Positions 4,580 through 5,574 of a stretch of DNA of 64,000 bases are shown in pieces (the stretch's first letter is position 1; each line of letters opens with the position of its first letter). Under the pieces are notes generated by a model, which was given only the letters and a program-made list of their open reading frames with translations, ran no database searches and was not told the origin of the DNA. The position numbers and the translations under genes are program-made. The DNA is from the human T2T-CHM13v2.0 reference genome, Homo sapiens, in the NCBI RefSeq assembly GCF_009914755.1, contig NC_060932.1. The stretch is one strand, 5' to 3'.

Positions 4580-5061
4580 GAATAAATGAACATAGGTCAT
4601 TAAGATTATATTAAAGTAAAGTTGTTAATATAATTTTTCAAGATAAATAATCCTAAATAATATTCTTGGCTGGGTTCAGTGGCTCACACCTGTAATCCCA
4701 GCACTTTGGGAGGCAGAGGTGGGTGGATCACTTGAGGCCAGGAGTTTAAGACCAGCCTGACCAACATGGCAAAACCCCATCTCTACTAAAATATAAAAAA
4801 TTAGCTGGTTGTGGTGGTGCACGCCTGTAGTTGCAGCTACTCGGGAGGCTGAGGCAGAAGAATCGCTTGAACCCGGGAGGCAGAGGTTGTAGTGAGCTGA
4901 GATTGCACCATTGCACTCTGGCCTGGGCGACAGAGCAAGACTCCATCTCAAAAAAAACCCCAGAATATACATAAAATCACCTTACTATCATAGAGTAAGT
5001 AAAATGATAAAATAATTTTAATAAATTTAATAAATCTTTGGAAAGATTCTGTGATTCTATA

Positions 5062-5308
5062 TTCTTTTGCCCAGGCAGGAGTGCAGTGGCACAATCTCTG
5101 CTCACTGTAACCTCCGCCTCCTGGGTTCAAGCAATTCTCCTGCCTCAGCCTCCAGAGTAGCTGGGATTACAGGCTTATGCCACCATGCCTGGCTATTTTA
5201 TGTGTTTTTAGTAGATAACGATGTTTCACCGTGTTGGCCAGGCTGGTCTCAACCTCCTGACCTCAAGTGATCCACTGGCCTCAGCTTCCCAATGTGGTAG
5301 GATTACAG
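5062..5308 (-). mobile_element. Tailless, TSD-less Alu segment copied from the 3320-3627 Alu
   Basis: Shares unusual variants with that Alu (see findings). Confidence 0.85.
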
Positions 5309-5574
5309 CACATTTATGGGTCAGGGCCACAGAGTTGCTGAACTCCAGAGGGGCACTGTTCATACAGAATACAATGTAAAGGGCACTGGAACTGAATGAA
5401 GAAAAGGGGATTGCCAGGTGCAGTGATGCACGCCCATAGTCCCAGCTATTCAGGAGGCTGAGGCAAGAGGGTCACTTGAGCCAAGTAGTTTGAGACCAGC
5501 CTGGGAAACACAGTGGGACCCTCTCTCTTAAAAAAAAAAAAAAATCAAATTGACAAACATCTCTACATGGATTG

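What the first reader, a model, noticed from the sequence alone, without database searches (positions are those of the whole stretch)
5040..5335. Alu in the right arm is a DNA-level inverted copy of the spacer Alu, not a retrotransposition
Seen: 5062-5308(-) has no poly(A), no 5' head and no TSD. In reverse complement it shares unusual variants with Alu 3320-3627: CACATTGG.AAGCTGAGG, TATCTACTAAAAACACATAAAATAGCC, GGTGGCATAAGCCTGT, CTCTGGAG and GCCTGGGCAAAAGAA. It joins arm sequence where Alu AAAAGAA resembles left-arm AAAATAA(TATAGAATC) at ~802-808. Inference: a polymerase copying the left arm backwards jumped to the spacer Alu for ~250 bp and then jumped back, a FoSTeS/MMBIR-type templated insertion fixed in the genome.
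Basis: partly seen in the sequence, partly recalled or inferred. Interest (0 to 1): 0.8.

Follow-up and report, generated by a model that had tools for sequence, protein, structure and literature searches.

The report
Alu piece copied from neighbouring Alu
A headless, tailless Alu piece in this gene-free stretch of human chromosome 8 was copied backwards from an Alu 1.5 kb away during DNA repair or replication rather than by retrotransposition; it is a clear example of a process already known.

Summary
Window 5062-5308(-) is an Alu piece lacking its first 22 bases, its last ~14 bases, a poly(A) tail and target-site duplications. Its closest relative in the whole T2T genome is Alu 3320-3628(+) 1.5 kb away: 92.3% identity, against 87-88% for the next best hits, and the match is reciprocal. 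A shared 24-mer occurs nowhere else in the genome. The two form a 99/99-supported clade.

The piece sits cleanly in an A-tract of the right arm of an old ~2.3-kb inverted duplication. The left arm keeps the empty site. One junction has 2 nt of exact microhomology (6 of 7 extended); the other has a 4-nt filler.

A local DNA-templated copy fits well. That it arose while the left arm was being copied is not shown. Non-CpG divergence from the donor is 5.7%, against about 9% between the arms (p = 0.14). Junction logic suggests the right arm is the original arm.

The "spacer Alu" is really the Alu at the inner edge of the right arm. It is one of two inverted Alus where the duplication probably turned round.

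This is a new example of a known kind and has no evident function.

The parts
5062..5308 (-). Truncated Alu piece, a reverse-complement copy of donor positions 3342-3587. It has no head, no poly(A) and no TSD. Bases 5062-5063 (TT, read AA in Alu sense) could equally be arm sequence, so they are microhomology.
   Evidence: 92.3%, 18 mismatches and 1 gap in 247 columns; unique pairing genome-wide; clade support 99/99.
5309..5312 (+). 4-nt filler CACA between the Alu piece and the point where arm homology resumes (5313). With the preceding CAG it forms the 9-mer CAGCACATT, which is also present on the same strand at 3351-3359 of the donor. This may be a second tiny template switch, but it is not significant.
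   Evidence: arm pair 554-802 / 5313-5561; 9-mer match; by my own arithmetic about 1.7 such 9-mers are expected by chance in the 12 kb scanned.
3320..3628 (+). Donor Alu: full length with poly(A) and no matching TSD. It lies at the inner edge of the right arm.
   Evidence: best match of its 5' flank to its 3' flank is 7/13.
803..808 (+). Empty site in the left arm (AAATAA within CTTAAAAAATAATATAG), corresponding to the insertion point.
   Evidence: alignments ending ...CCTGACTCTTAAA / ...CCTGACCCATAAA and starting TATAGAATCAC in both arms.
551..2559 (+). Left arm of the inverted duplication. It contains two arm-specific later Alu insertions with TSDs, at about 827-1130 and 1559-1842.
   Evidence: TSDs read.
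2560..2853 (-). Alu at the inner edge of the left arm, the mirror partner in position of the donor. It is flanked by a probable TSD (2542-2554 / 2854-2866, 11 of 13).
   Evidence: 457 of 20000 shuffles reach 11/13.
2854..3319 (.). Single-copy spacer between the heads of the two inverted Alus.
   Evidence: no arm-to-arm match there.
3629..5549 (+). Right arm. It contains the later Alu 3664-3957(-) with a TSD, and the piece under study.
   Evidence: (the unique arm sequence occurs at only these two places in the genome).
253..550 (+). Old Alu that ends at ...GAGCGAGACCC, without its last bases or poly(A), exactly at the outer end of the left arm. This is a probable breakpoint junction.
   Evidence: alignment.

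Best explanation
The piece is a DNA-templated patch. A break or nick in the A/T tract of the right arm (the site equivalent to left-arm 803-808) left a 3' end ...CTATA(TT). That end paired by 2 nt of exact microhomology (6 of 7 if extended) with the unusual A-rich stretch AAAAGAA near the 3' end of Alu 3320-3628, about 1.5 kb upstream on the same strand. This is a snap-back, which is why the copy is inverted. The end was extended for about 245 nt, let go at Alu position 23, and was joined to the other side of the break with a 4-nt filler. Most likely this was a separate repair event after the inverted duplication already existed. Shown: the donor-copy relationship, the truncations, the absence of a TSD, the empty site and the junction sequences. 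Inferred: the break, the snap-back priming and the timing.
For: Donor relationship: 92.3% identity against no more than 83% for other window Alus and 87-88% for the best other genomic hits. The shared 24-mer and the 34-place pattern are exact only at these two places. There are 17 shared non-consensus states and a 99/99 clade with a stem of 0.091. Not TPRT: no poly(A), no TSD, both ends truncated. Clean insertion with the empty site kept in the other arm. Microhomology AA, or AAAAGAA against AAAATAA. Later timing: non-CpG divergence is 12/210 = 5.7%, against 78/878 = 8.9% in unique arm sequence and 20/210 = 9.5% in the arm-partner Alus. The piece also lies in the arm that junction logic marks as the original. 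Precedent: passages of PMC3907307 report that insertions at human inverted-duplication junctions are mostly derived from the same chromosome, usually within 1 kb, and attribute them to slippage during fill-in synthesis or to alt-NHEJ.
Against: The lower divergence is not significant (Fisher p = 0.14-0.20), so an age equal to that of the duplication is not excluded. The donor is the very Alu at the turning point of the duplication, which a single complex event would explain without coincidence. A nearer Alu (4676-4957, about 105 bp away) was not used as template. Two nucleotides of microhomology is weak. No outgroup genome could be examined. The 245-nt length is long for typical polymerase-theta-type templated inserts (this last point is recalled, not tested).
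Confidence: 0.5

Rival explanations
1. A single complex replicative event. One nascent strand made an excursion to Alu 3320, returned to the arm, then turned round between the tails of the two inverted Alus (2560-2853 and 3320-3628) and copied the arm a second time. This is an MMBIR/FoSTeS or fold-back type rearrangement with several template switches, later fixed.
For: The donor is exactly the Alu at the inner junction of the duplication. Divergence of the piece from the donor (7.3% overall, 5.7% non-CpG) does not differ significantly from arm divergence. There is microhomology at a junction and a short filler. Passages of PMC3907307 describe inverted duplications whose junctions lie in inverted Alu pairs, with nearby-templated insertions.
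Against: The point estimate of age is about 0.6 of the arms' age. The excursion would have had to return to within 0-6 nt of where it left.
Confidence: 0.3
2. RNA-mediated, endonuclease-independent insertion (a non-classical Alu insertion). A transcript of Alu 3320 was reverse-transcribed to patch a double-strand break.
For: [quoted passage not shown] These are the features listed for NCAI in passages of PMC5402677.
Against: An RNA could land anywhere in 3.1 Gb, yet here the copy lies 1.5 kb from its only close relative. At the time of copying the donor already carried about 17 changes, including one in the B-box region (GTTCGAG changed to GTTTGAG; the box position is recalled). Target loss is only 0-6 nt.
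Confidence: 0.1
3. The piece was already present before the duplication and was later deleted precisely from the left arm. A related alternative is that an older Alu at the site was gene-converted by Alu 3320.
For: None directly. Neither can be excluded without outgroup genomes.
Against: The left arm shows an intact A-tract with no Alu remnant. A deletion would have to be exact to within a few bases. Gene conversion needs an acceptor Alu, and the left arm shows none existed.
Confidence: 0.04
4. Two independent retrotranspositions of a rare Alu subfamily that happen to lie near each other.
For: Two of the shared motifs recur elsewhere: 30 and 36 exact places including these two.
Against: No other place carries more than one of the motifs. 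The 24-mer is exact only here. The nearest other match to the 34-place pattern has 2 mismatches. The best other genomic hits are 87-88% identical. The piece has no tail or TSD.
Confidence: 0.01

Closest known systems
Templated insertions at rearrangement junctions (fold-back inverted duplications, FoSTeS/MMBIR-type complex rearrangements)
   Same: A nearby same-chromosome donor, inverted orientation, microhomology at one junction and a short filler at the other, all beside an inverted duplication whose inner junction lies in an inverted Alu pair. PMC3907307 (passages read) reports hybrid Alus at 2 of 21 sequenced junctions and insertions mostly templated within 1 kb. FoSTeS and MMBIR as named models are recalled, not read here.
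   Different: This is an old, fixed, small (2.3-kb arm) event in a gene desert, not a de novo pathogenic megabase duplication. The insert lies about 1.5 kb inside an arm and not at a duplication junction, and it may date from a later event.
Non-classical (endonuclease-independent) Alu insertions
   Same: Truncated at both ends, no poly(A), no TSD, a few extra bases (features as listed in passages of PMC5402677).
   Different: Those are thought to use Alu RNA and have no reason to land next to their source. Here the only close relative in the genome is 1.5 kb away, and there is almost no target deletion.
Short template-switch mutations that create local inverted copies during replication (recalled: Loytynoja and Goldman 2017; not read here)
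   Same: A local switch to the complementary strand and back, which creates an inverted repeat.
   Different: Those events are tens of bases long and act over short distances. This one is about 245 nt copied from 1.5 kb away.
Classical Alu retrotransposition by target-primed reverse transcription
   Same: The inserted sequence is Alu, and the target is an A/T-rich tract.
   Different: No poly(A), no TSD, missing 3' end, and private variants of a neighbouring old Alu.

Membership tests
Classical TPRT Alu insertion | Intact 3' end with poly(A) tail | tested here: not met
   The piece ends at ...GGGCAAAAGAA, about 14 nt before the donor's tail, and no A-run follows.
Classical TPRT Alu insertion | Flanking target-site duplication | tested here: not met
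   The flanks share no repeat. The left arm shows the target was neither duplicated nor lost beyond 0-6 nt.
Classical TPRT Alu insertion | L1 endonuclease-type cleavage site at the tail junction | tested here: inconclusive
   The junction lies at TATATT|ATTTTTT in the reconstructed target. It is T-rich but is not the canonical TTTT/AA at the join (the consensus is recalled).
Known Alu subfamily explaining the shared variants | The shared variants recur together in many genomic copies | tested here: not met
   The 24-mer is exact at 2 places only. The 34-place pattern gave 2 at zero mismatches, 0 at one and 1 at two. The best other hits are 87-88% identical (with 40 candidates scored in each).
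Templated insertion by template switching or synthesis-dependent repair | An identifiable nearby donor with private variants shared | tested here: met
   Donor 1,474 bp away, 92.3% identity, 99/99 clade.
Templated insertion by template switching or synthesis-dependent repair | Microhomology or short filler at the junctions | tested here: met
   AA exact (6 of 7 extended) at one junction, and the 4-nt filler CACA at the other.
Templated insertion by template switching or synthesis-dependent repair | DNA rather than RNA as the template | not testable with these tools
   Only proximity argues for DNA. The sequence alone cannot tell.
Single-event MMBIR/fold-back complex rearrangement | Same age as the inverted duplication | tested here: inconclusive
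   5.7% against 8.9-9.5% non-CpG divergence, Fisher p = 0.14-0.20.
Non-classical Alu insertion (ENi) | 3' truncation, no TSD, extra non-Alu bases | tested here: met
   The features are as listed in PMC5402677.
Non-classical Alu insertion (ENi) | Deletion at the insertion site | tested here: inconclusive
   0-6 nt could be missing, depending on how AAAAGAA is assigned.
Alu-Alu gene conversion | A pre-existing acceptor Alu at the site | tested here: not met
   The left arm has no Alu remnant at 803-808.

The most novel reading that the evidence does not exclude
The whole 5-kb structure is the fossil of one multi-switch replicative accident in an ancestral primate germline. A nascent strand first made a 245-nt excursion to Alu 3320, returned to the exact place it had left, then turned round between the tails of two head-to-head inverted Alus about 470 bp apart. 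It recopied about 2 kb of flank together with the Alu-spacer-Alu block, and re-entered the normal template inside the 3' end of an older Alu (550|551). That would make it a sequence-resolved, fixed, ancient counterpart of the complex rearrangements seen de novo in patients.
Probability: 0.28. Interest if true: 0.45.

Novelty: new member of a known kind. Interest (0 to 1): 0.3.

Why it matters
The case shows that not every Alu-like segment in the human genome is a retrotransposition. Some are DNA-level patches, which repeat annotation would count as insertions. It also gives a base-resolved, fixed example of templated repair beside an Alu-mediated inverted duplication. Such examples help calibrate how often these events reach fixation and how to recognise them: a reciprocal best hit to a neighbour, no tail, no TSD, and an empty site kept in the paralogous arm. 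No gene lies in the window, and I found no sign of function at the site itself. The effect is structural: one more inverted Alu pair.

Tried and rejected
1. Subfamily explanation: rejected by the pattern scans.

2. Hypermutated donor made by error-prone synthesis: rejected. Alu 3320 differs from the local consensus at 26/246 columns (10.6%), which is ordinary among the window's Alus.

3. Origin of the filler: I looked for k-mers from 5300-5326 within the first 12 kb. Only 9-10-mers turned up, at about the number chance would give. The one in the donor (CAGCACATT, 3351-3359) is suggestive only.

4. A third copy of the arm that could show the ancestral state: none exists in the genome (2 of 2 candidates each).

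5. A hybrid switch point inside Alu 3320 compared with Alu 2560: differences run the whole length and there is no low-divergence tail part. If the two Alus recombined, they did so at or in the poly(A)/poly(T) tails. Their divergence (27/202 = 13.4% non-CpG) exceeds the pooled arm value only at p = 0.07.

A 34-place version was run instead.

8. No search was made for a published description of this particular locus. The two paper searches were about mechanisms.

Full report
WHAT IS THERE

Window 1-6000 holds an old inverted duplication.
- The left arm runs 551-2559 and the right arm 3629-5549.
- At the inner end of each arm sits an Alu with its tail towards the arm and its head towards the centre: Alu 2560-2853(-) on the left and Alu 3320-3628(+) on the right.
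- The two heads face each other across 466 bp of single-copy spacer (2854-3319).
- Arm homology runs right up to the two Alu tails (last block of the long alignment).
- Four elements are present in one arm only. The left arm has Alus at about 827-1130 and 1559-1842, both with clear TSDs. The right arm has Alu 3664-3957(-) with a TSD, and the piece under study.
- The unique arm sequence occurs at only these two places in the genome (2 of 2 candidates scored in each).

The reverse complement of 5062-5308 aligns to 3342-3587 with 18 mismatches and one gap in 247 columns, which is 92.3%. The next best of the 82 HSPs in the window is 82.9%.

The piece begins at Alu position 23 and stops at ...GCCTGGGCAAAAGAA. 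It lacks the last ~14 bases and the tail, and there is no TSD.

Against a majority consensus of 43 other Alus (28 from the window and 15 from eight fetched loci), the two share 17 non-consensus states in 246 columns.
- Eleven lie outside consensus CpGs, and 8 of those occur in no more than 5 of the 43 other Alus.
- Five states are private to Alu 3320, 10-11 are private to the piece, and at 4 columns both depart from the consensus in different ways.
- One of the 17 is in fact a retained CpG base that 20 of the 43 also carry.

In a maximum-likelihood tree of 45 rows the two form a clade with support 99/99, a stem of 0.091 and tips of 0.068 and 0.043. The bootstrap had not fully settled.

- With the piece as query, the best non-self hit in the 3.1-Gb assembly is Alu 3320 (92%, 357 bits), and the next is 87% (301 bits).
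- With Alu 3320 as query, the best non-self hit is the piece (92%), and the next is 88%.
- Only 40 of 6474 and 40 of 3817 first-look candidates were scored in those two calls, so I added exhaustive pattern scans.
- The shared 24-mer around the A-rich linker is exact at two places only, both here. Fifty places have one mismatch, out of 4536 places within two mismatches.
- A 34-place pattern joining the linker variants to GGCATAAGCC gave 47 places at up to three mismatches: 2 at zero (these two), 0 at one, 1 at two and 44 at three.
- Two other shared motifs are individually recurrent, with 30 and 36 exact places including these two. No place outside this locus appears in more than one list.

The shared variants are therefore private to this pair and not diagnostic of a subfamily.

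JUNCTIONS

The left arm keeps the empty site: ...CCTGACTCTTAAA|AAATAA|TATAGAATCAC (791-819).

Read in the same sense, the right arm has ...CCTGACCCATAAA + TGTG + [Alu 23-268, ending GGGCAAAAGAA] + TATAGAATCAC.
- At the Alu-3' junction the last AA could come from either partner. The Alu's unusual AAAAGAA matches the arm's AAAATAA at 6 of 7 positions.
- At the Alu-5' junction there are four bases of filler.
- Depending on how the A-rich bases are assigned, 0-6 nt of target are missing, and nothing is duplicated.
- On the plus strand, CAG+CACATT (5306-5314) equals donor 3351-3359 on the same strand. This would be a second, tiny switch, but about 1.7 such 9-mers are expected by chance in the 12 kb scanned (the expectation is my own arithmetic).

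AGE

- Unique arm segments differ at 78/878 = 8.9% of non-CpG columns (pooled).
- The arm-partner Alus 1206-1506 and 4668-4957 differ at 14.2% overall and at 20/210 = 9.5% outside CpG-prone columns.
- The piece and its donor differ at 7.3% overall and at 12/210 = 5.7% outside CpG-prone columns.

The point estimate puts the copy at about 0.6 of the duplication's age. Fisher tests give p = 0.14-0.20, so equal age is not excluded.

WHICH ARM IS THE COPY (INFERENCE)

Alu 2560-2853 is flanked by a probable TSD (11 of 13; 457 of 20000 shuffles do as well). Alu 3320 has none (best 7 of 13).

The two Alu bodies share 4 non-consensus states, only 1 of them outside CpGs. They differ at 27/202 = 13.4% of non-CpG columns, more than the arms though only at p = 0.07. 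They look like two independent Alus.

The outer end of the left arm (550|551) abuts an older Alu that stops at ...GAGCGAGACCC, without its last bases or tail. The outer end of the right arm shows no such mark.

One model explains all of this without coincidences.
- A strand replicating leftwards through the right arm turned round from the tail of one inverted Alu onto the tail of the other.
- It recopied the Alu-spacer-Alu block and the arm.
- It then re-entered the normal template inside the older Alu.

On that model the right arm is the original and the left arm is the copy. Passages of PMC3907307 describe the same architecture in patients: a single-copy spacer, hybrid Alus from inverted Alu pairs at 2 of 21 sequenced junctions, and insertions templated mostly within 1 kb.

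HOW THE PIECE MOST LIKELY AROSE

A DNA template is favoured because the only close relative in 3.1 Gb lies 1,474 bp away. An RNA intermediate would have no reason to land there.

The inverted orientation is what intrastrand snap-back priming gives. The 3' end of a resected break at ...CTATA(TT) pairs with AAAAGAA upstream on its own strand, is extended to Alu position 23, and is then end-joined with a short filler.

My probabilities are:
- later, separate repair event: about 0.5;
- the same multi-switch event as the duplication: about 0.3;
- RNA-mediated non-classical Alu insertion, whose listed features the piece also fits (passages of PMC5402677): about 0.1;
- remaining alternatives: about 0.05 between them (0.04 and 0.01).

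COMPARISON AND VERDICT

The piece fails the defining features of classical retrotransposition. It meets those of a templated insertion, and it is a fixed, ancient, small-scale example of that known kind. No gene lies in the window, and nothing at the site itself points to a function. The annotated enhancer at 15397-16051 was not examined.

Interest is modest. It is a tidy teaching case and a reminder that repeat annotation can mistake repair patches for insertions. The decisive test is the state of the orthologous locus in other primates, which the tools here could not reach.

PAPERS

For PMC5402677 and PMC3907307 I read only the passages returned by term searches. All other titles were seen only in search listings. 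The named models (FoSTeS, MMBIR, polymerase-theta end joining, short template-switch mutations) and the Alu subfamily labels (AluS-, AluJ- and AluY-like) come from recall and not from any call.

Noticed in passing
window 551-5549: The whole inverted duplication appears to have turned round between two head-to-head inverted Alus (2560-2853 and 3320-3628) about 470 bp apart. Its left outer junction lies inside the 3' end of an older Alu (550|551). That pattern suggests an Alu-mediated U-turn with a second switch, and makes the right arm the original.
   Followed up: partly
window 1893-2236 and 4250-4590: Each arm carries a ~340-bp element that itself has terminal inverted repeats (cagtggcc...ggcaccagggac at one end and its complement at the other). 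It looks like a miniature DNA transposon. This is the best-conserved part of the arms, at 92-95% (I2/I3).
   Followed up: no
window 5306-5314 and 3351-3359: The 9-mer CAGCACATT bridging the end of the Alu piece and the filler recurs on the same strand in the donor, 9 nt from where copying stopped. It may be a micro snap-back, but it is within chance expectation.
   Followed up: partly
window 814-826 / 1131-1142: A later full-length Alu with a TSD entered the left arm only about 20 bp from the site equivalent to the right-arm insertion. The same A/T-rich patch was therefore hit twice independently, once in each arm.
   Followed up: no
window 565-584: The left arm carries about 15 extra bases (tttagtttttatata) inside the T-tract of the free Alu monomer, compared with the right arm (alignment).
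   Followed up: no
window 15397-16051: The RefSeq-annotated enhancer lies within stretches masked as repeats. It was not examined.
   Followed up: no
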